Below, piece after piece: positions 11,739 to 52,103 of a stretch of DNA of 64,000 nucleotides (position 1 is the first letter of the stretch; each line of letters opens with the position of its first letter). Below the pieces are notes generated by a model. It did not search any database and had not been told where the DNA came from. It worked only from the letters and a program-made list of their open reading frames with translations. The DNA lies in sequence record PP359696.1; one strand, written 5' to 3'. The DNA is from Escherichia phage Ge15. The translations under genes were made by a program, and so were the position numbers.

Positions 11739-14700
11739 TTATGCTAAACGAACGATATAGTTAAAAGCAATGTTTTTAACCGTGTTTTCTGTATTACCTG
11801 TACTATTTACAGTGATAGTATGTCCGTGCGAACCAATCGCTACTGAATGCGAGTGGGCACCGATACCTACAGTGTGAGTGTGAGCACCGATACCTACAGT
11901 ATGAGCATGGTTACCCGTAGCGCTAGTAGTACCTGACCAAGTATGAGTATGGTTACCTTCTGTTGATGTTTTGGCCATATTCGACGATGCAGTAGCACCG
12001 CTCACGGTTGCAGTGAATTTAGCGTTGCCGTTTGGACCTACAGTATTGTATCCGTCATAGAATACGCTAGTGGTTATGCCGCCTTGTACCTGAGGACCTG
12101 AACGCGCGTGTTGGTGGTTACCTGCTGCGGCAGTAGTTCCACTCACCGTATGGTTATGGTTACCTGTGGTATTACTGGTTTTAGTACCATAATCAAAGCT
12201 TGAAGATGTTTTAGTACCATAATCAAAGCTTGATGTGGTTTTAGTACCCAAATCAGTATTAGATGCAGAAGCACTATGATTATGAGACTTAATACCATCA
12301 GCTTCTGCACTCAACACTGCACGACCACTCGGTTTACCCTTGATAGTTTGACCACGCATATCAGGCAGAGTGCCGGAAGGATACACAGCAGCTAACTTAG
12401 GATACAAGTCAGCATCAAATGTTTGACCTTCCATTATGGCATAACCTTCAGGAGGTGTATCAGTAGGCCAAGGAATCGGAGCACCAATTGGATAACTTGA
12501 GACAATATCTGTCTTAAGGTTATTTATTGTGGTATTCAAGTTAGCAAAATTACCAGAACCACCAGTAATATTACCATCAGTACCGAATTGAGCATTACCA
12601 ACTTTTAATGGTTTAGTAATATCGACAGAATCAGAGTTTAATGCAATACCATGTGAATATGTGTAGCTGTGCATACGAACGACGTTGCCGCCATCTCCAA
12701 TACCTAAATACCATTTCGGAACATCTGCTTTACGTCCTTGAATGAAGTTAGAAGACTCTTGTGTTGGAGCATTTATTCTAATAGCATCTGATGCCATATT
12801 TACTGTTATGCGTTGACCAGCCGTAGTTCCAGCCGCTTCTACTTTAAATCTACCGCCGCCGATATCTACATCATGATCCATGGAAACTTTACCAGTACTT
12901 AATGTAATATAGAACGGACGTAAATTAGAAATACCACCTGATTCACCAACATTCTGTGGAGTTGGAATAATATAAAGCTTATCTTCAGAACGACGGAAAA
13001 TAGCCCCGTATTCAGCATCGTAAATACGGAAAGCATCAGCAGTCCCGCCAATTTTAACCTGTCCGGTAATTGAGGCACCACCTTGAACAAACAATCCATT
13101 ATTCATTGTAACGTTGCCAACTAGAGTGCTTAATCCGTTAACTCTAAGACTTCCGTCGGTTATTAAGCTTCCTCTAGCATTAACCTGTCCATTGAACTGA
13201 GTTACAACAGGGCCTGTAGTTTCAGAACCGGTCGGAGCTACGCGTTGAGAATAGAAATAATAACCTTGGCCATCAGAAACCTCAAATACGGTTTCTCGAG
13301 CTTTATCACCAGTAGCATTAAATGAGTTACCCCATGCTTTCACGGTCACATAACTTTTGTTCTGGCCTGCACGAGTACCGCCTTCCCAAAGGATTTGTTT
13401 GGTGCCATCAATACCTGAAGCCGCTTTAAAAACTAGAGAAGCATTAGTTCCATCACCATTAAAATATAATCCATTATTAAGTTTTAATGTTTGAACAGAA
13501 GCGATGGTACCATCAGCACGCAAATTTAACGAATTTGAACCAGTTTTAATATCTAAAATGCCAGGCTCAACAAGAAGCCCATCACCCATACTAATGGACA
13601 TACGACCCGTGCCACGGAAATAGTGATACATTTTAGAATTACTGCTATACCCGATATGAGTTTGACCATCACCATTATTATTACCATCAACATCGGTACG
13701 CGCAGTAAACATTGCTTGGTTGTTATTTGGGTAATCCCATGTAGTTCCGGAATCACGGCTATAACCAACCATCAATTTTTTAGTACTGTTAATACCATTG
13801 TTCAAAATGGTAGCCGAAGAAATACCGTTGGCCATTAAATCGATAACGCCGTCGCGAACCCATTTAATACCTGTATCGTTATCACCAATGGCAATACCAA
13901 TAGAAATAGCTGAATCTAATGGATAACGTCCATTCGCACCACTATCCGGAAGACCTACGGAAATAGATTTACCTGCAGTAATACGCCCGGAGGTATCAAA
14001 CGCCCACTGGAAAGATGATGGTCCAATACCAGTCCACCAAGAAATTTCTTGTGGCTTACCTTTTCGGCAATCGGCAATTTCATGGAAAATACTTGATGCA
14101 CTTGATGCACGCAATTTACGCAAATAGTTTAAACCATTAGTAGTATTATCAGAACCATCAGCCGGTGGGTTATAAACCCAAGTAGGTAAAGAAACCCAAT
14201 CATACCCGATGTTGGCGTTAGAGACAAATGTTTTTGTACTGAAATTAATATTTTTAGTAACAATTTCAGGACCGGTGATAATACCATTAGCAGAGTTAAT
14301 ATTGCCTGACGCAGAAATATTACCACTGCGAACTTCAAGACTGCCAGAATCTACAATAAAATTACCATTACGGTTAAAGACCCAGTGTTTAGAATTGTCT
14401 GGAGCTGTAGAATCAATATAATGAACTCTAAATGAGCCTTCGCTTACTAATGTACCTACTGAAAAAGTACCGTCTTTATAACGTTGCTTAATCAGAGGAT
14501 GGTATTCAGACCCTGAGGTAGTTGAACTCAAATCGGTGAAAATTGGAGCTTTATTTGTGTGCTGATTTGCCCAAGCACCATTTCCAGCAGTTTTTGGCAA
14601 GAATTCAATATACTTTCCTGCATAAACAAACTGATTTCCATTAAGATTATACGTGCCGTTTTGTAAATAATCACCATTTTGAGTAATATTTCCACTAATG

Positions 14701-41886: not shown

Positions 41887-42083
41887 TGAAATTCTTTTTG
41901 GGTCAAACTGTTGAATTAAAGGGAGTTGGTATACCTGGATTAATTTCTAAGGTTCTACCTCCATTTAAATGGAGTGGTATTCAAATAAAAGAGGCTTATA
42001 TTGTTTCCTGGGTAGATGGAAATGAAGACCTTCGTATGGGTGATGAATTATCTCCTATCTATGGATTAAAGGAATTAATATGA
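41886..42083 (+). CDS. hypothetical protein
   Basis: 65-aa ORF. Confidence 0.45.
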   Translation: MKFFLGQTVELKGVGIPGLISKVLPPFKWSGIQIKEAYIVSWVDGNEDLRMGDELSPIYGLKELI

Positions 42084-42286
42084 ATATAATTAATAAGATT
42101 TTTGGAATTCAGTACATTAAGGTTACATATAAAGTAACGTATAAAGGTCCGTATACCGATGAACATGAAGAGCCACAAGTTCAGTCTATTATATTAGAAA
42201 AGGACCCTAACTGGCCAGTTGAATTTCGTCTTCCTTGCTATGGTCATTGGGCTGATGTTGAAATTATAAGTATTGAAAATGTCTGA
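42080..42286 (+). CDS. hypothetical protein
   Basis: 68-aa ORF. Confidence 0.45.
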   Translation: MNIINKIFGIQYIKVTYKVTYKGPYTDEHEEPQVQSIILEKDPNWPVEFRLPCYGHWADVEIISIENV

Positions 42287-42737
42287 GTTAGAGATAAGAA
42301 GCAATTTTAGATGGCCATCATGTGCATTAAGTAATTTCGCCCAATGGCCTTTTGTTATGGATGGTATCCAATTTGGAGGTCTCGAAGGATTCCTCCAAGG
42401 ATGCAAGGTGAAAAATGTTGAACAACAGCGTCGTATATTTGGGTTATCCGGGCTTGCCGCCCAACAAGCTGGAAGGTCTTATGCTAGAGCTCAGGACCGT
42501 GGGACCCTCTTCTGGCTTGGAGTTCCGTTTTCAAGATACTCCCCAGCGTGGAAAGAATTATACACAAATGCATATTTTGAAGCAGCGTTCCAAAACAAGG
42601 GCTTTCGCGATGCATTACAAGCCTCGAAAGGAAAAGTTTTGAAGCACAGCATGGCTAGTGGTCTAACAAAAGATGATACAATACTAACCGAAGCTGAATT
42701 TATTGATGTGTTAAACCTATTAAGAGACTCTCTATGA
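42273..42737 (+). CDS. YbiA/NADAR (DUF1768)-like protein, 30.3-like
   Basis: motif SNFAQWPFVMDGIQFGGLEGFLQGCKV parallels YbiA FSNFAAWP..DG...SEHYFQAQK; locally higher GC. Confidence 0.6.
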   Translation: MKMSELEIRSNFRWPSCALSNFAQWPFVMDGIQFGGLEGFLQGCKVKNVEQQRRIFGLSGLAAQQAGRSYARAQDRGTLFWLGVPFSRYSPAWKELYTNAYFEAAFQNKGFRDALQASKGKVLKHSMASGLTKDDTILTEAEFIDVLNLLRDSL

Positions 42738-43597
42738 AGCCTACTATTTTGACTGATATTGATGGAGTATGTTTAAGCTGGCAATCAGGCCTTCCTTATT
42801 TTGCTCAGAAATATAATCTTCCGTTAGAACATATTTTAAAAATGATCCAAGATGAGAAATTTATTTCTCCGGGTAAACTCTTTAATTGTGATGAAGAACT
42901 TGGTGTCAAGTTAATTGAAAAATATAATCGATCAGATTTTATTCGTTATTTGTCTCCATATAAAGATGCACTGTGTGTAATTAACAAATTAAAAGAAGAT
43001 TATAATTTTGTAGCTGTTACAGCATTGGGTGATTCTATTGACGCTCTGTTGAATCGTCAATTTAATTTGAATGCTCTTTTTCCTGGTGCCTTCTCAGAAG
43101 TAATGATGTGTGGTCATGATTCTTCAAAAGAAGAGTTATTCAAAAAGGCAAAAGAGAAATATAACGTAATTTGTTATATTGACGATCTCGCTCACCATTG
43201 CGATCATGCGAGTGAAATATTAAATGTTCCTGTTTATTGGATGGCGCGAGGAGAGCGTGACAATATTCCAAAAACCGCTCAGCGAGTTTATACATGGAAT
43301 GATGTAGAAAATAAGCTTTTTTCGCCGAAGGAAAATAAAGAAAGTTTTGATAATGAAAAAGCTATAAAAGATGTAATTGAGAAGATGGTTAAAAACGATT
43401 CTTTTCGTTGGAACACTACCTGGAGAACTCCTGGATTTAATCCGTATAATCCATATTATACACATCCATATAATCCATATTATACACACCCGTATCATAT
43501 GAATCCATTCCATACGTGGAGTTATACTAAGCCTGGTGATGCAGGGTATTTTAATAGATTTACTAGTGGTGATAATATTTTCCAAGGAGCATTCTAA
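42734..43597 (+). CDS. HAD-like hydrolase with C-terminal Tyr/Pro/His-rich repeats, 30.2-like
   Basis: N-terminal ILTDIDGV (DxDG HAD motif I); C-terminal NPYNPYYTHPYNPYYTHPYHMNPFH repeats. Confidence 0.6.
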   Translation: MKPTILTDIDGVCLSWQSGLPYFAQKYNLPLEHILKMIQDEKFISPGKLFNCDEELGVKLIEKYNRSDFIRYLSPYKDALCVINKLKEDYNFVAVTALGDSIDALLNRQFNLNALFPGAFSEVMMCGHDSSKEELFKKAKEKYNVICYIDDLAHHCDHASEILNVPVYWMARGERDNIPKTAQRVYTWNDVENKLFSPKENKESFDNEKAIKDVIEKMVKNDSFRWNTTWRTPGFNPYNPYYTHPYNPYYTHPYHMNPFHTWSYTKPGDAGYFNRFTSGDNIFQGAF

Positions 43598-43644
43598 TGT
43601 TTGTCGTTCACACTATTTATGAAAATGAAGGTAATACTACACGT
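43232..43644 (+). repeat. 413-bp direct repeat, copy 1 (3' end of 30.2-like gene plus first 48 bp of 30.1-like gene)
   Basis: identical to 45617-46029 by direct comparison. Confidence 0.9.
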
Positions 43645-44017
43645 CCGTATAATCCATATTATACACATCCATATAATCCATAATTTAATCCGTATAATCC
43701 ATATTATACACATCCTATAAAAAATTAAAATTAACCACAATAAGCGAATTGATTAAAAATATTTATTGTTCATTATCCGTCAGTAATCATCCCGGGCAAA
43801 TGCCCGGGAATTATTCTAGGATTATTTTCTTTGTTAAAAAAGACAAACGGTATTAACTGATGTATTTACTATTTACCGCTCCCTGCAGGGGGGATTATCA
43901 GAATCCGCGGTTATTCATTATTTATATACATTCAATAAAAAAGTAACCTCATAAAAAATCCTGTACTCACAGGGTGATGCGGGATAACTGACGTAAGGAG
44001 TGCTGCAGGGATTTGAT
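43645..44017. other. left arm of inserted block: scrambled phage micro-repeats then unique AT-rich DNA with GC palindromes
   Basis: 43645-43680 repeats 43442-43477, 43684-43715 repeats 43436-43467; then cccgggcaaatgcccggg, ctgcagggggg, ccgcgg. Confidence 0.6.
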
Positions 44018-44108
44018 TAGACTGGCCCCCTGAATCTCCAGACAACCAATATCACTTAAATAAGTGATAGTCTTAATACTAGTTTTTAGACTAGTCATTG
44101 GAGAACAG

Positions 44109-44474
44109 ATGATTGATGTCTTAGGGCCGGAGAAACGCAGACGGCGTACCACACAGGAAAAGATCGCAATTGTTCAGCAGAGCTTTGAACCGGGGATGAC
44201 GGTCTCCCTCGTTGCCCGGCAACATGGTGTAGCAGCCAGCCAGTTATTTCTCTGGCGTAAGCAATACCAGGAAGGAAGTCTTACTGCTGTCGCCGCCGGA
44301 GAACAGGTTGTTCCTGCCTCTGAACTTGCTGCCGCCATGAAGCAGATTAAAGAACTCCAGCGCCTGCTCGGCAAGAAAACGATGGAAAATGAACTCCTCA
44401 AAGAAGCCGTTGAATATGGACGGGCAAAAAAGTGGATAGCGCACGCGCCCTTATTGCCCGGGGATGGGGAGTAA
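44109..44474 (+). CDS. insC: IS2 InsC (orfA, HTH regulator/transposase N-terminus)
   Basis: 121-aa [29 protein letters not shown]... with A6G slippery site at 44426-44432. Confidence 0.85.
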
Positions 44475-45143
44475 GCTTAGTCAGCCGTTGTCTCCGGGTG
44501 TGCCAAACGTGTTTACCGGATCATGCGCCAGAATGCGCTGTTGCTTGAGCGAAAACCTGCTGTACCGCCATCGAAACGGGCACATACAGGCAGAGTGGCC
44601 GTGAAAGAAAGCAATCAGCGATGGTGCTCTGACGGGTTCGAGTTCTGCTGTGATAACGGAGAGAGACTGCGTGTCACGTTCGCGCTGGACTGCTGTGATC
44701 GTGAGGCACTGCACTGGGCGGTCACTACCGGCGGCTTCAACAGTGAAACAGTACAGGACGTCATGCTGGGAGCGGTGGAACGCCGCTTCGGCAACGATCT
44801 TCCGTCGTCTCCAGTGGAGTGGCTGACGGATAATGGTTCATGCTACCGGGCTAATGAAACACGCCAGTTCGCCCGGATGTTGGGACTTGAACCGAAGAAC
44901 ACGGCGGTGCGGAGTCCGGAGAGTAACGGAATAGCAGAGAGCTTCGTGAAAACGATAAAGCGTGACTACATCAGTATCATGCCCAAACCAGACGGGTTAA
45001 CGGCAGCAAAGAACCTTGCAGAGGCGTTCGAGCATTATAACGAATGGCATCCGCATAGTGCGCTGGGTTATCGCTCGCCACGGGAATATCTGCGGCAGCG
45101 GGCTTGTAATGGGTTAAGTGATAACAGATGTCTGGAAATATAG
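44432..45143 (+). pseudogene. insD: IS2 insD (orfB transposase catalytic part), frame disrupted by internal deletion
   Basis: orfB reads [23 protein letters not shown] then shifts at about 44501; the downstream DDE region (44523-45143) is in another frame. Confidence 0.8.
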
Positions 45144-45367
45144 GGGCAAATCCAATAAACAATTGGAATTTACTTCCATTGATCTGTTTACTCAGTGGTT
45201 GTCACTTTTATCGAGAAAGGTTTGCAGAACGCGGGTTTTTTTATAAGGTTCCTGATGTACTGAGGGATTATTTATCAGCTATACCGCTGGAAATAAATGA
45301 AAAGGCACGATACAAACCCGGCATCGCTAACTATCACAATATCATCACATGTGGTTTTTCAACGTTG

Positions 45368-45616
45368 TTACCCTATATAAGGCACGGCACCATGACAAAT
45401 ACGGGTATTCGCGCCGATAACAACTTCACCTGCAGTTTCATCAATAATTACCTGGTCTGCAATCTGAATATTTTTCTCTTTAACATTAAGCTTCAGATAG
45501 TTTTTCAGTTCCTGTGACAGAAGGTTGGGAATAAGCGGTTGACGCTTCCACCAGTGCGGAATAGCGGGTGGGTTTGTCGCGCTGAGGTTCGCGTCCAGTA
45601 AAAAAGGCAATAAGTC
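45368..45616 (-). pseudogene. 3' fragment of a non-phage gene (C-terminal about 80 codons ending ...GANTRICHGAVPYIG)
   Basis: coding-like - strand frame ending at a stop at 45368-45370, truncated at the junction with phage repeat copy 2; higher GC than the phage. Confidence 0.5.
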
Positions 45617-46029
45617 GTTTATTGGATGGCGCGAGGAGAGCGTGACAATATTCCAAAAACCGCTCAGCGAGTTTATACATGGAATGATGTAGAAAATAAG
45701 CTTTTTTCGCCGAAGGAAAATAAAGAAAGTTTTGATAATGAAAAAGCTATAAAAGATGTAATTGAGAAGATGGTTAAAAACGATTCTTTTCGTTGGAACA
45801 CTACCTGGAGAACTCCTGGATTTAATCCGTATAATCCATATTATACACATCCATATAATCCATATTATACACACCCGTATCATATGAATCCATTCCATAC
45901 GTGGAGTTATACTAAGCCTGGTGATGCAGGGTATTTTAATAGATTTACTAGTGGTGATAATATTTTCCAAGGAGCATTCTAATGTTTGTCGTTCACACTA
46001 TTTATGAAAATGAAGGTAATACTACACGT
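45617..46029 (+). repeat. 413-bp direct repeat, copy 2
   Basis: identical to 43232-43644. Confidence 0.9.
45626..45982 (+). pseudogene. truncated duplicate of the 30.2-like gene 3' end (118 codons from internal Met)
   Basis: translation identical to the C-terminal 118 aa of the 42734-43597 product; upstream context is foreign. Confidence 0.6.
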
Positions 46030-46251
46030 GATTACGGTCACGTAAATCAATTTTTTAGATGCAATCCAGAATTCCGAGCTCAAAAAGACGAACGAATTTT
46101 TAAAAAATGTGTAGAGCAAGGTTTCATTTACGTCAAGCACTGGATGCAAGGAAATAAAGTTAGAACTACATATCATAAGTCTTTGCCTGAGCTTAATGAT
46201 GAATTGATTTATAATAGAGCTGTAAACCAAACTTTGAAGGATGAGCAATGA
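45982..46251 (+). CDS. hypothetical protein (30.1 position)
   Basis: 89-aa ORF; start overlaps the stop of the 30.2-like ORF (TAATG). Confidence 0.55.
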   Translation: MFVVHTIYENEGNTTRDYGHVNQFFRCNPEFRAQKDERIFKKCVEQGFIYVKHWMQGNKVRTTYHKSLPELNDELIYNRAVNQTLKDEQ

Positions 46252-47711
46252 TTCTTAAAATTCTGAATGAAATAGCATCTATTGGATCAACTAAACAGAA
46301 GCAAGCAATTCTTGAAAAGAATAAAGATAATGAATTGCTTAAACGGGTATATCGTCTGACTTATTCTCGTGGGTTACAGTATTATATCAAGAAATGGCCT
46401 AAACCTGGTATTGCTACCCAGAGTTTTGGAATGCTGACTATTACCGATATGCTTGACTTCATTGAATTCACGTTAGCTACTCGGAAATTGACCGGAAATG
46501 CTGCAATTGAGGAATTGACTGGATATATCACCGATGGTAAAAAGGATGATGTTGAAGTTTTGCGTCGAGTGATGATGCGAGACCTTGAATGCGGTGCTTC
46601 AGTATCTATTGCAAACAAAGTTTGGCCAGGTTTAATTCCTGAACAACCTCAAATGCTGGCAAGTTCTTATGATGAAAAGGGCATTAGTAAGAATATCAAA
46701 TTTCCAGCCTTTGCACAGTTAAAAGCAGATGGAGCCCGGTGTTTTGCTGAAGTTAGAGGCGATGAATTAGATGATGTTCGTCTTTTATCACGAGCTGGTA
46801 ATGAATATCTAGGATTAGATCTTCTTAAGGAAGAATTAATCAAAATGACTGCTGAAGCCCGCCAGATTCATCCAGAAGGTGTGTTAATTGATGGCGAATT
46901 GGTATACCATGAGCAAGTTAAAAAGGAACCAGAAGGCCTAGATTTTCTTTTTGATGCTTATCCTGAAATTAGTAAAGCTAAAGAATTCGCCGAAGTAGCG
47001 GAATCTCGTACTGCTTCTAATGGAATCGCCAATAAATCCTTAAAAGGAACCATTTCCGAAAAAGAAGCCAAATGCATGAAGTTTCAGGTCTGGGATTATG
47101 TCCCGTTGGTAGAAATATACGGTCTTCCGGCGTTTCGTTTAAAATATGATGTACGTTTTTCTAAACTAGAACAAATGACATCAGGATATGATAAAGTAAT
47201 TTTAATTGAAAACCAGGTAGTAAATAACCTAGATGAAGCTAAGGTAATTTATAAAAAATATATTGACCAAGGTCTTGAAGGTATTATTCTCAAAAATACC
47301 GATGGATTGTGGGAAAATGCTCGTTCAAAAAATCTCTATAAATTTAAAGAAGTAATTGATGTTGATTTAAAAATTGTAGGAATTTATCCTCACCGTAAAG
47401 ACCCTACTAAAGCAGGTGGATTTATTCTTGAATCAGAGTGTGGAAAAATTAAAGTAAATGCTGGTTCAGGCTTAAAAGATAAAGCCGGTGTAAAATCACA
47501 TGAACTTGACCGTACTCGCATTATGGAAAACCAAAATTATTATATTGGAAAAATTCTAGAGTGCGAATGCAACGGTTGGCTAAAATCTGATGGCCGCACT
47601 GATTACGTAAAATTATTTCTTCCAATTGCGATTCGTTTACGTGAAGATAAAACTAAAGCTAATACATTCGAGGATGTATTTGGTGATTTTCATGAGGTAA
47701 CTGGTCTATGA
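46248..47711 (+). CDS. 30: ATP-dependent DNA ligase
   Basis: 487-aa ORF near-identical to T4 DNA ligase from MILKILNEIASIGSTKQKQAIL...; adenylation lysine motif region present. Confidence 0.95.
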   Translation: MILKILNEIASIGSTKQKQAILEKNKDNELLKRVYRLTYSRGLQYYIKKWPKPGIATQSFGMLTITDMLDFIEFTLATRKLTGNAAIEELTGYITDGKKDDVEVLRRVMMRDLECGASVSIANKVWPGLIPEQPQMLASSYDEKGISKNIKFPAFAQLKADGARCFAEVRGDELDDVRLLSRAGNEYLGLDLLKEELIKMTAEARQIHPEGVLIDGELVYHEQVKKEPEGLDFLFDAYPEISKAKEFAEVAESRTASNGIANKSLKGTISEKEAKCMKFQVWDYVPLVEIYGLPAFRLKYDVRFSKLEQMTSGYDKVILIENQVVNNLDEAKVIYKKYIDQGLEGIILKNTDGLWENARSKNLYKFKEVIDVDLKIVGIYPHRKDPTKAGGFILESECGKIKVNAGSGLKDKAGVKSHELDRTRIMENQNYYIGKILECECNGWLKSDGRTDYVKLFLPIAIRLREDKTKANTFEDVFGDFHEVTGL

Positions 47712-47945: not shown

Positions 47946-50042
47946 ATGATGGAACTCATTACAGAATTATTTGACGAAGATACTACTCTTCCGATTACAA
48001 ACTTAAATCCAAAGAAGAAAATACCACAAATTTTTTCAGTTCATGTTGATGACGCAATTGAACAACCAGGCTTTCGTTTATGTACCTATACATCTGGAGG
48101 TGATACTAATCGCGATTTAAAGATGGGCGATAAAATGATGCATATTGTTCCTTTTACATTAACTGCTAAAGGTTCAATTGCTAAATTAAAAGGTCTCGGT
48201 CCAAGCCCAATTAATTACATCAATTCAGTTTTTACTGTTGCGATGCAGACGATGCGTCAGTATAAAATTGATGCCTGTATGCTTCGTATTCTTAAGTCTA
48301 AAACTGCTGGTCAAGCTCGTCAAATTCAACTTATTGCTGATAGACTTATCCGCAGTCGTTCAGGTGGCAGATACGTCCTTCTTAAGGAACTCTGGGATTA
48401 CGATAAAAAGTATGCATATATTCTTATACATCGCAAAAATGTATCACTAGAAGACATTCCAGGAGTTCCAGAAATTAGCACCGAGCTCTTTACTAAAGTT
48501 GAATCAAAGGTTGGTGATGTTTATATCAATAAAGATACTGGAGCTCAAGTAACTAAAAATGAGGCAATTGCTGCATCTATTGCGCAAGAAAACGATAAAC
48601 GTTCTGACCAAGCTGTAATCGTTAAAGTTAAAATTTCCCGTAGAGCAATTGCACAAAGTCAATCATTAGAATCTTCTAGATTTGAAAGTGAATTATTCCA
48701 AAAGTATGAATCTACCGCAGCTAATTTCAATAAACCTGCTACGGCTCCTTTAATTCCCGAAGCAGAAGAAATGAAGCTTGGAATTAATTCATTAGCTTCT
48801 AAAACTAAAGCAGCAAAAATTATTGCTGAAGGAACTGCAGATGAACTTCATTATGACTATAAATTCTTTTCAAAAAGTGAGGTTAATGAAGTTTCTGAAA
48901 AAATTAAAGATGTAATTCTTAATGCGATTAAAAATGAACCAACTACTTCAATAAAATGTTTAGAGAAATACGCAGCAGCTGTTAATCAATTATTTGAAGA
49001 ATATAAAGATAATTGGCTTGATAAACATAATAAAACCCGTAAAGGACAGCCAGATGAAGTCTGGGAAGAAATGACTAAAAATTCCTGGAACGCAGCAAAA
49101 ACTAAATTCCTCAAAAGAATGATTTACAGCTTTTCTGGAATTGGTGCAGGTCCAATGATTGATATTACTATTGCCCGTGATGGTTCTAAATATACTCCAT
49201 CACAAAAGCGTGGCATTAGAGAGTATTGCGGTTCAGGATATACTGACATCAATAATCTTCTTTTAGGACGCTACAATCCAGAACGATATGATGTAATGAG
49301 TGAAAAAGAAATTGAATCTGCTATAAATAACTTAGATTCAGCTTTTGAAAATGGTGACCGTATACCAGAAGGCATTACAGTTTATCGTGCTCAAAGCATG
49401 ACTGCTCCTATATACGAAGCACTAGTTAAAAATAAAGTGTTCTATTTCAGAAATTTTGTATCTACTTCTTTAACTCCTATCATTTTTGGACGTTTTGGAA
49501 TTACGCATACTGGTATTGGTCTTTTAGAACCAGAAGCTCGTAATGAATTGACAGTTGATAAAAATGAAGAAGGAATAACTATTAATCCAAGCGAAATAAG
49601 AGCGTATAAAGAAAATCCTGAATACGTTAAAGTTCAAATAGGATGGGCAATTGATGGAGCTCATAAAGTTAATGTTGTATATCCAGGAAGTCTCGGAATA
49701 GCAACAGAAGCTGAAGTTATTCTACCACGAGGATTGATGGTCAAAGTTAATAAAATAACTGATGCTTCTAATAATGACGGAACAACATCTAATAATACAA
49801 AACTCATTCAAGCTGAAGTTATGACTACGGAAGAACTCACCGAATCAGTCATTTATGACGGTGACCGTCTAATGGAAACTGGTGAAGTAGTTGCAATGAC
49901 AGGTGATATTGAAATAGAAGACAGAGTTGACTTTGCATCATTTGTTTCATCAAATGTTAAACAAAAAGTAGAATCATCTCTTGGAATTATTGCGTCTTGC
50001 ATAGATATTACAAACATGCCTTACAAGTTCGTTCAAGGATAA
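47946..50042 (+). CDS. alt: Alt-family ADP-ribosyltransferase (capsid-packaged, injected)
   Basis: 698-aa ORF; N-terminal MELITELFDE; position between ligase and baseplate genes as T4 alt. Confidence 0.75.
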   Translation: MMELITELFDEDTTLPITNLNPKKKIPQIFSVHVDDAIEQPGFRLCTYTSGGDTNRDLKMGDKMMHIVPFTLTAKGSIAKLKGLGPSPINYINSVFTVAMQTMRQYKIDACMLRILKSKTAGQARQIQLIADRLIRSRSGGRYVLLKELWDYDKKYAYILIHRKNVSLEDIPGVPEISTELFTKVESKVGDVYINKDTGAQVTKNEAIAASIAQENDKRSDQAVIVKVKISRRAIAQSQSLESSRFESELFQKYESTAANFNKPATAPLIPEAEEMKLGINSLASKTKAAKIIAEGTADELHYDYKFFSKSEVNEVSEKIKDVILNAIKNEPTTSIKCLEKYAAAVNQLFEEYKDNWLDKHNKTRKGQPDEVWEEMTKNSWNAAKTKFLKRMIYSFSGIGAGPMIDITIARDGSKYTPSQKRGIREYCGSGYTDINNLLLGRYNPERYDVMSEKEIESAINNLDSAFENGDRIPEGITVYRAQSMTAPIYEALVKNKVFYFRNFVSTSLTPIIFGRFGITHTGIGLLEPEARNELTVDKNEEGITINPSEIRAYKENPEYVKVQIGWAIDGAHKVNVVYPGSLGIATEAEVILPRGLMVKVNKITDASNNDGTTSNNTKLIQAEVMTTEELTESVIYDGDRLMETGEVVAMTGDIEIEDRVDFASFVSSNVKQKVESSLGIIASCIDITNMPYKFVQG

Positions 50043-50045
50043 ATC

Positions 50046-52103
50046 ATGGAACTTATTACAGAATTATTTGACGGCGCTTCGGCGCCGGTTGTTAACTTAA
50101 ATCCTAAGCATAAAATACCTCAAATTTTTGCTATTCAAACCGGTGAAGAAAGCGTGCTTCCTGGATTTAGATTTTGTACATACACCTCTGGCGGTGATAC
50201 AAATAAAAACGTTAAGCCAGGCGATAAAATGATGCATATCGTAATGATAGGTGTTAATGAGAAACTATCATTAGTTAAACTTAAAAACTTGGGTGGAAAT
50301 CCAATTGGTGTCATTAATGCGGTTTTTGATACTGCTCTTCAAACAATGAAACAGTATAAAATTGACGCATGCCTATTCCGCGTACTAAAAAGTAAAACAA
50401 ATGGTGCAGCTCGTCAAATGCAAGTTATTGCTGACCGTTTAGTACGTACTAAAGGAGCAGGTCGATATGTTCTTTTAAAGGAAATCTGGGATTACGATAA
50501 AAAGTATGCATATATTATGGTTTACCGTAAAAATGCCAATTTAGAAGACATTCCAGGTGTACCTCCTATTTCAACTGAGTTATTCACAAAAGTTGAATCA
50601 AAGGTTGGTGATGTTTATGTAGATGTTAAAACAGGTAATGCTGTTCCTAAAGCTGTTGCTGTTGCTGCTTCTATTGCTTTAGAAAATGATAAGCGCACGG
50701 ATCAAGCTGTTATTCAGAAAACTAAAATTAGTCGTCGATTGGCAGCACAAGCTCAATATTCTACTGTCGATGCTTCGCTTCAGGGTGATAGCTTCGCTGC
50801 CAAGAAATATCAAGAGTTTGAATCTAAAGTTCCGGTATATAAAGCAGAAGGACCAATGAACTCTGGTGTTATTCAGATTGGTTCAAACTTCAGCAAAGGA
50901 GCTATCGGTGGTATGAGAAGTGCTTCTCGTTTTAAATCTAACGATTATGAACTAGAAAGCTTCCGAAATCATATTGCATTGGCTCATGCACGTTTACGTG
51001 ATCCGTCTATCAGACTGCAGAGCGATATAACACATCAAGGTTCTCAAGAATATTTAAAGAATAAAGAATTTTTTGATTATAAAACCGATAAAATTTTGAG
51101 CGATCTCGCTGACATTAATATTTCTAATAGCTTTGATGTTATTAAGAAAATTATCAATGATTTAGTTAAAGGTTCTAAAGCCACGCCAGACGAAAAGGTA
51201 GCTATTATTCAATTTGTTATGAATGGCATTTATAAATTGATTAATGAATCTGCTGCTCAGGCATATGAATACGCAAGCACCGAAGTAACTCCAAAAGGAT
51301 TAACTCAGGCTGAGTCTGATGTAATAGAAGATTATTGTGCAGATTCATATGTTGAAATGAACTCGTTCCTCTTGGGTAAACCAGATTCTACCCGTGAAGA
51401 ATACATGGAACGAGCTATTAAACACATCGAGACAATGGATTCTGCATTCGCTAAAGGTTCAGTTCTTCCTCCAGGAACTACGCTTTATCGTGGACAAGAA
51501 GTTACTTTTAAAACTTTACGTCATAATATTGAAAATAAAATGTTCTATTTCAAGAACTTCGTATCCACATCGCTTAAACCAAATATCTTCGGTGAGCATG
51601 GTAAAAACTATATGGCTCTAGATGATTCCGGCGCAGTATTTTCTGGCGAAGGAGAAGGTTCAGTTGATGCTGAAGATTTAATGCATATGGGTAGTCACTC
51701 TGCTTATGCGAATGAAGACGCTGAAACTAGCGTAGGTATGGTAATTAAAGGGGCTGAGCGAATCAAAGTTATCGTTCCAGGTCATTTATCAGGATTTCCA
51801 TCAGAAGCTGAAGTTATTTTACCGCGTGGAATTTTGCTGAAGATTAATAAAGTGAGCACGTACATGATGAAAGAAACTGCTTATAATAAGTATCTAATCG
51901 AAGGCACAATCGTTCCTCCTTCTGAACAATTAGAAGAATCGGTATATGATGGCGATCATCTAATGGAAACTGGTGAAGTTCGTCCAATGGCTGGGTTTAA
52001 TCAATTCCTTGTAGAAGAATCAAAAGAAGAGGAAAACGAAGTTTCTCAAATCTTGGCTTCTTTGGTTAACATCAACGGAATGTCTAAAAAGTTCAAGATG
52101 TAG
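50046..52103 (+). CDS. Alt-like paralogue
   Basis: 685-aa ORF; same N-terminus MELITELFD and collinear similarity to the upstream alt product. Confidence 0.7.
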   Translation: MELITELFDGASAPVVNLNPKHKIPQIFAIQTGEESVLPGFRFCTYTSGGDTNKNVKPGDKMMHIVMIGVNEKLSLVKLKNLGGNPIGVINAVFDTALQTMKQYKIDACLFRVLKSKTNGAARQMQVIADRLVRTKGAGRYVLLKEIWDYDKKYAYIMVYRKNANLEDIPGVPPISTELFTKVESKVGDVYVDVKTGNAVPKAVAVAASIALENDKRTDQAVIQKTKISRRLAAQAQYSTVDASLQGDSFAAKKYQEFESKVPVYKAEGPMNSGVIQIGSNFSKGAIGGMRSASRFKSNDYELESFRNHIALAHARLRDPSIRLQSDITHQGSQEYLKNKEFFDYKTDKILSDLADINISNSFDVIKKIINDLVKGSKATPDEKVAIIQFVMNGIYKLINESAAQAYEYASTEVTPKGLTQAESDVIEDYCADSYVEMNSFLLGKPDSTREEYMERAIKHIETMDSAFAKGSVLPPGTTLYRGQEVTFKTLRHNIENKMFYFKNFVSTSLKPNIFGEHGKNYMALDDSGAVFSGEGEGSVDAEDLMHMGSHSAYANEDAETSVGMVIKGAERIKVIVPGHLSGFPSEAEVILPRGILLKINKVSTYMMKETAYNKYLIEGTIVPPSEQLEESVYDGDHLMETGEVRPMAGFNQFLVEESKEEENEVSQILASLVNINGMSKKFKM

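What the first reader, a model, noticed from the sequence alone, without database searches (positions are those of the whole stretch)
44018..45154. The IS2 copy is defective: internal deletion breaks insD, and there is no target-site duplication
Both IS2 terminal inverted repeats and insC (121 aa, with the A6G frameshift site at 44426-44432) are intact. The orfB frame reads ...[11 protein letters not shown] and then jumps frame at about 44501: roughly 190 bp, about 65 codons of the InsD N-terminal region, are missing and the deletion is not a multiple of 3, so the InsCD fusion transposase cannot be made. The 5 bp flanking the ends (ttgat on the left, ataaa on the right) do not match, so this is not a simple fresh transposition into this site. 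The element probably arrived as a passenger on a larger fragment, or the flanks were rearranged afterwards.
Basis: partly seen in the sequence, partly recalled or inferred. Interest (0 to 1): 0.7.

Follow-up and report, generated by a model that had tools for sequence, protein, structure and literature searches.

The report
Dead IS2 inside phage-captured host DNA
A broken copy of the bacterial jumping gene IS2 sits inside a 2-kb patchwork of E. coli K-12 chromosome pieces lodged in a T4-like virulent phage. It did not jump there; it was carried in by irregular recombination with host DNA, which is unusual for this kind of phage.

Summary
Observation confirmed. 44018-45154 is IS2, identical to the E. 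coli K-12 copies except for a 194-bp internal deletion (IS2 nt 485-678). The deletion removes InsD residues ~24-88 and shifts frame, so the frameshifted InsCD product stops 15 codons past the joint. Both terminal repeats, insC and the A6G site are intact. The flanking pentamers differ (TTGAT / ATAAA).

The window is a T4-like (Tequatrovirus) phage. The IS2 lies in a 1,972-bp patchwork between phage genes 30.2 and 30.1, bracketed by an exact 413-bp duplication of phage DNA.

Every non-IS host piece is K-12 DNA from beside a different resident IS2 copy, on the correct side and in the correct orientation:
- IS2I-left, 65 bp
- IS2K-left, 237 bp
- IS2H-right, 229 bp
- IS2A-right, 233 bp

The eight novel joints have 0-2 nt of microhomology. 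No E. coli genome, plasmid, phage or metagenome contig searched has this structure. Related phages have 30.2-30.1-ligase uninterrupted.

So IS2 did not transpose here. It is a passenger, most likely brought in by illegitimate, IS2-homology-guided recombination with K-12 host DNA. Without the reads, an artefact or a minority molecule cannot be excluded.

The parts
42734..43597 (+). Phage gene 30.2 (287 aa), intact, in the left copy of the duplicated segment. Its 3' end carries a 24-bp tandem repeat (43432-43508).
   Evidence: Collinear with relatives up to 43644.
43232..43644 (.). Left copy of an exact 413-bp direct duplication of phage DNA (3' part of 30.2 plus the first 48 nt of 30.1).
   Evidence: 100% identical to 45617-46029.
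43644..43682 (+). Filler piece a: a 39-nt exact copy of 43441-43479 (the 30.2 repeat region). The joint with 30.1 shares 1 nt.
43683..43715 (+). Filler piece b: a 33-nt exact copy of 43435-43467.
43716..43780 (+). E. coli K-12 yqiG 5' fragment, 65 bp. It is the left flank of IS2I, positions -68 to -4 relative to IRL.
   Evidence: 100% identity.
43781..44017 (+). E. coli K-12 intB 3' end and downstream DNA, 237 bp. It is the left flank of IS2K, positions -246 to -10; the 9 bp GGTCCCTTG next to IRL are missing. It contains the terminator-like hairpin 43790-43809.
44018..45154 (+). IS2 lacking nt 485-678 (1,137 of 1,331 bp). Both terminal inverted repeats are intact.
44109..44474 (+). insC (orfA), 121 aa, intact. 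The A6G slippery site lies at 44426-44432.
44501..44502 (+). Joint of the 194-bp internal deletion (1-nt T ambiguity). The frameshifted InsCD product stops 15 codons downstream.
44523..45143 (+). insD remnant, 206 aa, with the DDE core only (rve, rve_3). It is uncoupled from the N-terminal DNA-binding part.
45155..45383 (+). E. coli K-12 orgA/MxiK pseudogene fragment, 229 bp. It is the right flank of IS2H, positions +1 to +229, with the native junction to IRR. One A-to-G difference at 45262.
45384..45616 (-). E. coli K-12 yaiX remnant and yaiP 3' end, 233 bp. It is the right flank of IS2A, positions +47 to +279. The host genes lie on the - strand.
45617..46029 (.). Right copy of the 413-bp duplication. 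It carries a promoterless 3' part of 30.2 and the start of the intact 30.1.
45982..47711 (+). Intact phage genes 30.1 (DUF3045, 45982-46251) and DNA ligase gene 30 (46248-47711), immediately downstream of the insert.

Best explanation
The element is a non-autonomous remnant of IS2 that never transposed into this site.

What is shown:
- The IS2 is the centre of a 1,972-bp patchwork of E. coli K-12 chromosomal DNA.
- The patchwork lies between genes 30.2 and 30.1 of a T4-like virulent phage, bracketed by a 413-bp tandem duplication of phage DNA.
- The duplication keeps both phage genes intact: 30.2 from the left copy and 30.1 from the right copy.
- The element cannot make the InsCD transposase. 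It keeps only InsC (the repressor/DNA-binding part) and both ends, so at most it could be moved in trans by a host IS2.

What is inferred about how it got there: during growth on a K-12 strain, one complex illegitimate recombination or replication event (preferred), or a few successive ones, produced the structure. A phage DNA end left the template at 43644 and stuttered twice in the nearby 24-bp repeat. It was then joined to, or copied from, a chain of host fragments, and re-entered phage DNA 413 bp upstream.

All four host flank pieces come from beside different IS2 copies, each on its proper side and in its proper orientation. I therefore infer that the host fragments were held in register by pairing of their IS2 sequences (multi-copy homology), with breaks and joints falling at or near the edges of that homology (-4, -10, +1, +47).

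Consequence: the dead IS2 now gives the phage 484 + 653 bp of perfect homology to every IS2 in the host.
For: - IS2 anatomy and defect.
- Phage identity and native gene order: 30.2-30.1-ligase is contiguous in every relative examined.
- Exact 413-bp duplication. It is the only perfect long repeat in the window.
- Host pieces map at 99.6-100% to K-12 loci next to IS2I, IS2K, IS2H and IS2A.
- About 0.3% of the K-12 genome lies in or within 300 bp of an IS2. Five independent random pieces all landing there has an expectation of about 2e-13.
- All eight novel joints have 0-2 nt of shared sequence. Overlap- or k-mer-based mis-assembly cannot create such joints.
- The two filler pieces are exact copies from within the duplicated segment, which is typical of serial template switching.
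- No vector or replicon sequence is present.
- The structure is absent from 5,426 E. coli genomes, 72,556 plasmids, 50,697 phage records, IMG/VR, JGI metagenomes and GTDB representatives.
Against: - No reads were available, so nothing shows the insert is present in most packaged genomes.
- A 413-bp direct repeat should recombine out quickly in a T4-type phage (established knowledge of T4 duplications). A neutral or harmful insert is therefore expected to be short-lived.
- The insert places a terminator-like hairpin (43790-43809) and 2 kb of foreign DNA upstream of the ligase gene. No T4-type promoter motif was found between 42600 and 46400. That should be costly.
- Three host pieces have suspiciously similar sizes (229, 233, 237 bp), which I cannot explain and which could hint at a technical origin.
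- A 1,707-bp Logan contig, 100% identical to the phage flank, reads straight through the uninterrupted 30.2-30.1 junction.
- The role of IS2 pairing is inferred from the pattern alone. All K-12 IS2 copies compared are identical, so the IS2's own parentage gives no information.
Confidence: 0.6

Rival explanations
1. Technical artefact or non-genomic molecule. The 1,972-bp block is not part of the phage chromosome. It could be a chimeric contig built from contaminating K-12 host reads. Alternatively it could be a small 2,385-bp circular or concatemeric by-product (413 bp of phage DNA plus the host patchwork) present in the lysate, which the assembler threaded into the genome as a 'duplication plus insert' because it shares the 413-bp node.
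For: - The insert plus one repeat copy is topologically identical to a loop on the 413-bp node.
- Three host pieces are about 230 bp each.
- All host DNA matches the usual laboratory propagation strain.
- No other database holds the structure.
- A 100%-identical contig has the uninterrupted allele.
- The insert is expected to be polar on the ligase gene.
Against: - Eight consecutive joints with 0-2 nt of overlap cannot come from overlap or k-mer errors. Each needs reads that really span it.
- Random library chimeras are singletons and would not chain consistently over 2 kb.
- The extreme IS2-adjacency and orientation pattern points to a biological process.
- Even the 'separate small molecule' version requires the same recombination events to have happened in infected cells.
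Confidence: 0.2
2. The mosaic pre-existed in the chromosome of a rearranged K-12 derivative, and the phage picked it up in one simple illegitimate event. For example, an inversion by IS2H x IS2K recombination would join intB-IS2-orgA.
For: IS2H and IS2K lie in opposite orientation in K-12. A crossover between them would give exactly intB-IS2-orgA (orientation read).
Against: - No complete E. coli genome of 5,426 has more than one of these junctions next to an IS2. None has the 9-bp or the 194-bp deletion.
- Four further non-homologous joints (yqiG/intB, the 9-bp loss, the 194-bp loss, orgA/yaiX) would still need separate illegitimate events in the host.
- The orgA/yaiX junction is absent from GTDB representative genomes.
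Confidence: 0.1
3. Genuine IS2 transposition into the phage, followed by loss of the target duplication and later decay (the internal deletion).
For: Both terminal repeats are intact. IS2 does occur in a few phage records.
Against: - The IS2 ends abut K-12 chromosomal DNA and not phage DNA. The right junction is the native IS2H junction, and the left flank is the IS2K flank.
- A transposed copy (via the excised circle of the IS3 family, established knowledge) carries at most 1-2 bp of old flank, not hundreds.
- No 5-bp repeat is present.
Confidence: 0.03
4. Serial 'onion-layer' capture; this overlaps the best explanation's 'few successive events' variant and differs only in step count. Once one IS2-containing fragment was in the phage, successive infections of K-12 added new flanks one at a time by homology-facilitated illegitimate recombination. 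In each event one crossover fell inside IS2 and one illegitimate joint fell just outside it. Each event pushed the older flank outward and trimmed it near the IS2 edge.
For: - The layering fits. The outer flanks (IS2I-left, IS2A-right) are truncated near the IS2 edge (-4, +47).
- The inner right flank (IS2H) is seamlessly joined to IS2.
- Homology-facilitated illegitimate recombination is documented in E. coli (PMC3240628, abstract seen).
Against: - It needs at least four independent rare events to be fixed in a phage lineage on a laboratory strain, with no evident selection.
- The inner left flank is not seamless (9 bp missing).
- Microhomology at the joints is 0-2 nt. From memory, not checked in a paper here, natural-transformation studies report about 3-10 nt.
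Confidence: 0.15

Closest known systems
IS2 of Escherichia coli K-12 (IS3 family)
   Same: 100% nucleotide identity over 1,137 bp. Same IRL and IRR, same insC, same A6G frameshift site.
   Different: Lacks nt 485-678, so no InsCD transposase can be made. There is no 5-bp target duplication. It is flanked by DNA from two other IS2 loci and resides in a virulent phage.
Tandem duplications with novel joints, and plasmid-phage cointegrates formed by a single crossover, in phage T4 (classical rII duplications; the T4 insertion/substitution vector system). Recalled from established literature, not read here.
   Same: Foreign DNA is bracketed by a direct repeat of a short phage segment, leaving the interrupted genes intact in one copy each.
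   Different: The insert has no vector, replicon or marker. It is a chain of seven short phage- and host-derived fragments (two phage, five host) joined without homology.
Homology-facilitated illegitimate recombination (one homologous anchor plus one illegitimate joint); shown in E. coli conjugation, PMC3240628
   Same: Host pieces are anchored to a shared homologous sequence (IS2), and their other ends are joined illegitimately close to the homology edge.
   Different: It has not been demonstrated for a T4-type phage. Joints here have 0-2 nt of microhomology. Several anchors from four loci are stacked.
Replicative template-switch rearrangements (microhomology-mediated break-induced replication, or multi-invasion rearrangements at dispersed repeats). 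Recalled from eukaryotic and bacterial literature, not read here.
   Same: Multiple short templated segments in direct orientation, generally lengthening along the chain (39, 33, 65, 237, 484, 883 nt; the last piece is 233). There is local 'stutter' copies from within the duplicated segment, a net tandem duplication, and breakpoints at the edges of a dispersed repeat.
   Different: The mechanism is inferred only. The templates include degraded host DNA in a phage-infected cell.
IS2 fragment in Escherichia phage BP9 (Vequintavirus, PP488543.1)
   Same: It is the only non-temperate-type phage among the 9 phage records (of 50,697) that hold IS2 DNA. The copy is truncated (IS2 nt 1-381) and lies next to an early gene, rIIB.
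   Different: 95.8% identity, left end only, and a different phage family. Its flanks were not analysed for host DNA.

Membership tests
IS2 (IS3 family) | Nucleotide identity to IS2, with both imperfect terminal inverted repeats | tested here: met
   Window IS2 equals K-12 IS2 minus nt 485-678, exact. IRL starts TAGACTGG and IRR ends ...GCAAATCCA.
IS2 (IS3 family) | orfA (InsC, helix-turn-helix) followed by an A6G -1 frameshift site | tested here: met
   insC at 44109-44474, 121 aa, HTH_Tnp_1, E = 1.8e-19. A6G at 44426-44432.
IS2 (IS3 family), transposition-competent copy | A continuous orfA-orfB fusion frame giving a transposase with HTH_21 plus the DDE (rve) core | tested here: not met
   The -1 frame stops 15 codons after the deletion joint. 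InsD residues ~24-88 are deleted, and the HTH_21 match of intact InsD (residues 55-104) is lost. The rve core is stranded in another frame.
Simple transposition insertion of IS2 | A 5-bp direct target duplication, with the IS ends abutting target (phage) DNA | tested here: not met
   TTGAT versus ATAAA. The ends abut K-12 intB and orgA DNA.
Tequatrovirus (T4-like) 30.x-ligase early region | Gene order 30.3-30.2-30.1-30(lig)-alt with high nucleotide identity to T4-like phages | tested here: met
   95-98.6% identity to many Tequatrovirus records. Gene order matches apart from the insert.
Duplication-flanked insertion (tandem duplication with filler, or Campbell-type cointegrate) | An exact direct repeat of the target segment on both sides of the foreign DNA | tested here: met
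   43232-43644 equals 45617-46029, 413/413.
Duplication-flanked insertion (engineered plasmid cointegrate) | Presence of plasmid backbone, replicon or marker in the insert | tested here: not met
   Plasmid search matches only the IS2 part. No record covers 80% or more.
Homology-facilitated illegitimate recombination | One recombination joint inside a homologous anchor, and the other at a non-homologous site nearby | tested here: inconclusive
   The pattern of flank ends near the IS2 edges fits. The homologous crossover leaves no trace, because all K-12 IS2 copies are identical.
Specialised transduction by aberrant prophage excision | Host DNA from one locus adjacent to an attachment site, in a temperate phage | tested here: not met
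   The host pieces come from four unlinked loci. The phage is a T4-like virulent type.

The most novel reading that the evidence does not exclude
A strictly virulent, host-DNA-degrading T4-like phage acquired chromosomal DNA from beside four different IS2 copies while growing on a laboratory K-12 strain. Dispersed IS copies would then act as homology anchors that hold host fragments in register and let them be stitched into a phage genome. The dead IS2 left behind would be a standing landing pad for further capture of IS-adjacent host genes. That would be a concrete, testable route for gene acquisition by virulent phages on a laboratory time scale.
Probability: 0.35. Interest if true: 0.8.

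Novelty: new variant of a known kind. Interest (0 to 1): 0.55.

Why it matters
By itself a dead IS copy is ordinary. What matters is where it is and what surrounds it.

T4-type phages destroy host DNA and replace cytosine, and they almost never carry insertion sequences or recognisable host chromosome. Of 50,697 phage records only 9 hold IS2 DNA, and none is a Tequatrovirus.

If the block is real, it is a molecular fossil of host-DNA capture by a virulent phage. Every joint is preserved, and a pattern of four IS2-adjacent flanks in register points to a specific mechanism.

That bears on how virulent phages pick up host genes, including auxiliary metabolic genes and anti-defence genes. It also bears on the safety argument that strictly lytic therapeutic phages do not mobilise host DNA.

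If the block is an artefact, it is a useful warning about curating phage assemblies grown on IS-rich laboratory hosts.

Tried and rejected
- Same deletion or flanks in E. coli: I searched 5,426 complete genomes with the 2-kb block and with a 601-bp probe spanning the 9-bp loss and the 194-bp loss. The best hits were ordinary K-12 IS2K, IS2A and IS2H loci in 2-3 pieces. None has the structure.
- Same structure elsewhere: exact junction patterns gave 0 hits in IMG/VR, JGI metagenomes and GTDB genomes. The plasmid collection matched IS2 only. The phage collection matched IS2 only, in 9 records.
- Tracing the source assembly by exact proteins: the chimeric ORFs, the truncated 30.2 and both Alt paralogues are not on record. 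The 206-aa InsD remnant is on record, but only because IS2 copies split by other ISs give the same product, so it is uninformative.
- Phage origin for the two 'unknown' flanks: 'distant' searches of the phage collection found nothing. Both flanks turned out to be E. coli DNA.
- Assigning the parent IS2 copy from SNPs: impossible, because IS2A, H, I and K are identical.
- My own early figure of 193 bp for the deletion was an arithmetic slip. It is 194 bp.
- Literature searches for IS2 or host DNA in T4-like phages returned nothing relevant.
- De Bruijn or overlap mis-assembly was considered and rejected as the sole cause, because the joints share only 0-2 nt.

Full report
**Observation**

Window 44018-45154 is IS2. 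Positions 44018-44501 equal IS2 nt 1-484 and 44501-45154 equal nt 678-1331 of the E. coli K-12 copies, both at 100%. The element is exactly K-12 IS2 with nt 485-678 removed: 194 bp, with one T shared at the joint.

- Both terminal inverted repeats are intact.
- insC (44109-44474, 121 aa, HTH_Tnp_1) is intact.
- The A6G slippery site (44426-44432) is intact.
- After the programmed -1 shift the frame reads ...[11 protein letters not shown]|[15 protein letters not shown] and then a stop.
- The deletion removes InsD residues ~24-88, so the HTH_21 match of intact InsD (residues 55-104) is lost.
- The DDE core (44523-45143; rve, rve_3) is stranded in the insC frame behind two stop codons.
- The flanking pentamers are TTGAT and ATAAA.

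'Roughly 190 bp' is 194 bp.

**Setting**

The window is a T4-like phage (Tequatrovirus). The flanks are 95-98.6% identical to hundreds of such phages. They carry the early genes 30.3, 30.2, 30.1, DNA ligase (30) and two alt paralogues on the + strand.

In all relatives examined, 30.2, 30.1 and the ligase gene are contiguous. In the window, phage collinearity stops at 43644 and resumes at 45617. Segments 43232-43644 and 45617-46029 are an exact 413-bp direct repeat, the only perfect long repeat in the 64 kb.

So 2,385 bp have been added: a second copy of 413 bp and a 1,972-bp insert (43645-45616). Gene 30.2 is intact in the left copy and 30.1 in the right copy. The left 30.1 start is fused to 12 junk codons.

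**Anatomy of the insert, left to right**

| Piece | Window coordinates | Origin |
|---|---|---|
| a | 43644-43682 | exact copy of 43441-43479 |
| b | 43683-43715 | exact copy of 43435-43467; both a and b come from the 24-bp tandem repeat at the end of 30.2 |
| c | 43716-43780 | K-12 yqiG; left flank of IS2I, -68 to -4 |
| d | 43781-44017 | K-12 intB 3' end; left flank of IS2K, -246 to -10, with the 9 bp GGTCCCTTG next to IRL absent |
| e | 44018-45154 | the deleted IS2 |
| f | 45155-45383 | K-12 orgA pseudogene; right flank of IS2H, +1 to +229, native junction, one A-to-G change at 45262 |
| g | 45384-45616 | K-12 yaiX remnant and yaiP 3' end; right flank of IS2A, +47 to +279 |

There are eight novel joints, and each shares 0-2 nt. 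No intact host gene is carried.

**The striking pattern**

All four non-IS host pieces come from immediately beside four different resident IS2 copies of K-12. The left flanks lie on the left and the right flanks on the right, all in the orientation they have relative to IS2. Only about 0.3% of the K-12 genome lies in or within 300 bp of an IS2. Random fragments cannot explain the pattern; the expectation is of order 1e-13.

The missing target duplication is thereby explained. The two ends of this IS2 touch the flanks of two different chromosomal copies. IS2H itself also lacks a duplication in K-12.

**Uniqueness**

- No complete E. coli genome (5,426) has the 194-bp deletion, the 9-bp loss, or more than one of the junctions.
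- No plasmid has more than a normal IS2.
- Only 9 of 50,697 phage records contain IS2 DNA. None is a Tequatrovirus. The only virulent-type one is Vequintavirus BP9, with a 381-bp IS2 left-end fragment beside rIIB.
- Exact junction strings are absent from IMG/VR, JGI metagenomes and GTDB representative genomes.
- The source assembly could not be traced.

**Interpretation**

Shown:
- IS2 did not transpose into the phage. It is a passenger inside host DNA and is transposase-dead.
- The donor DNA matches K-12 at four loci where K-12 carries IS2. I infer from this that the donor was a K-12-lineage strain; I did not test whether other lineages carry IS2 at these sites.

Inferred: the block arose in phage-infected cells by illegitimate recombination or replication associated with a tandem duplication. 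I prefer one complex event. A DNA end leaves the template at 43644 and makes two short 'stutter' copies in the adjacent repeat. It then passes through a chain of host fragments of mostly increasing length (65, 237, 484, 883 and 233 nt) and re-enters phage DNA 413 bp upstream. This resembles template-switch rearrangements known elsewhere (recalled, not tested).

The IS2-adjacency and the preserved orientation suggest that the host fragments were aligned by pairing of their IS2 sequences, with breaks falling at the homology edges (-4, -10, +1, +47).

A serial version is also possible. Each infection would add one flank by homology-facilitated illegitimate recombination, a process known in E. coli (PMC3240628, seen). 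It fits the layering but needs at least four rare events to be fixed without visible selection.

**Caveats**

- I had no reads.
- A 413-bp repeat should be unstable in a T4-type phage.
- The insert brings a terminator-like hairpin (43790-43809) and 2 kb of foreign DNA upstream of the ligase gene, and no T4-type promoter motif was found between 42600 and 46400.
- Three host pieces are oddly similar in size (229, 233, 237 bp).
- A 1,707-bp Logan contig, 100% identical to the phage flank, reads through the uninterrupted junction.
- The same set of joints would also be produced by a separate 2,385-bp circular or concatemeric molecule sharing the 413-bp segment, which an assembler could thread into the genome.

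Pure mis-assembly is unlikely, because joints with 0-2 nt of overlap need real spanning reads. I put about 0.2 on an artefact or minority molecule and 0.1 on a pre-formed host mosaic. The two remaining rivals get 0.03 (true transposition followed by decay) and 0.15 (serial layering), which overlaps the 0.6 I give the best explanation, since that already allows a few successive events; the rival figures therefore do not add to one.

**Verdict**

The element is a known IS (IS2) in a new, defective form and in a very unusual place. The real interest lies in the host-DNA patchwork in a virulent phage. Interest is moderate to high, conditional on read-level confirmation.

Noticed in passing
window 43432-43508 (and 45817-45893): Gene 30.2 ends in a 24-bp tandem repeat encoding PYNPYYTH units. 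30.2 is 278, 279, 286 or 287 aa in relatives, which looks like repeat-number polymorphism. The two phage-derived filler pieces at the left joint were copied from this repeat.
   Followed up: partly
window 3985, 4491, 7632, 10136, 23931, 24655; also 33700 and 52103: Families of about 55-66-nt repeats containing GTTTAC...TACTAT, which look like T4-type early promoters. None lies between 42600 and 46400, so the ligase gene probably depends on read-through across the insert.
   Followed up: no
window 43790-43809 (+): The host intB terminator-like hairpin (TCCCGGGCAAATGCCCGGGA followed by ATTATTCT) was imported in the same direction as phage early transcription. It could be polar on 30.1 and the ligase gene.
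   Followed up: no
window 47946-50042 and 50046-52103: Two tandem Alt-like ADP-ribosyltransferase paralogues with about 71-80% nucleotide identity in patches. Neither exact protein is on record in the public gene-position collection.
   Followed up: partly
window 45262: A single A-to-G difference from every E. coli match within the orgA-derived piece. The remaining host-derived DNA is 100% K-12. It could be a post-capture mutation, a host-strain SNP or a sequencing error.
   Followed up: partly
window 45155-45383, 45384-45616, 43781-44017: Three of the four host flank pieces have nearly the same length (229, 233, 237 bp). No explanation was found. It could reflect fragment size in infected cells or a technical signature.
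   Followed up: no
L018 (Logan SRR25221740 contig, 1,707 bp): It is 100% identical to window 41945-43644 and continues 7 nt into 46030-46036, which is the uninterrupted 30.2-30.1 allele. The contig ends just past the junction. It may be an insert-free relative or ancestor.
   Followed up: partly
L034 (phage BP9, PP488543.1) 2501-2881: A Vequintavirus carries a 381-bp IS2 left-end fragment (95.8% identity, starting at IS2 nt 1) overlapping the annotated start of rIIB. It is the only other virulent-type phage record with IS2 DNA.
   Followed up: partly
L004 (K-12 IS2H) and L003 (K-12 IS2K): K-12 IS2H has no 5-bp target duplication (AAGTT / ATAAA). IS2H and IS2K lie in opposite orientation, so a crossover between them would create the intB-IS2-orgA arrangement seen in the window.
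   Followed up: partly
window 11801-12200: The only other stretch with GC above 0.46 (0.477) in a window that averages 0.36. It was not examined.
   Followed up: no
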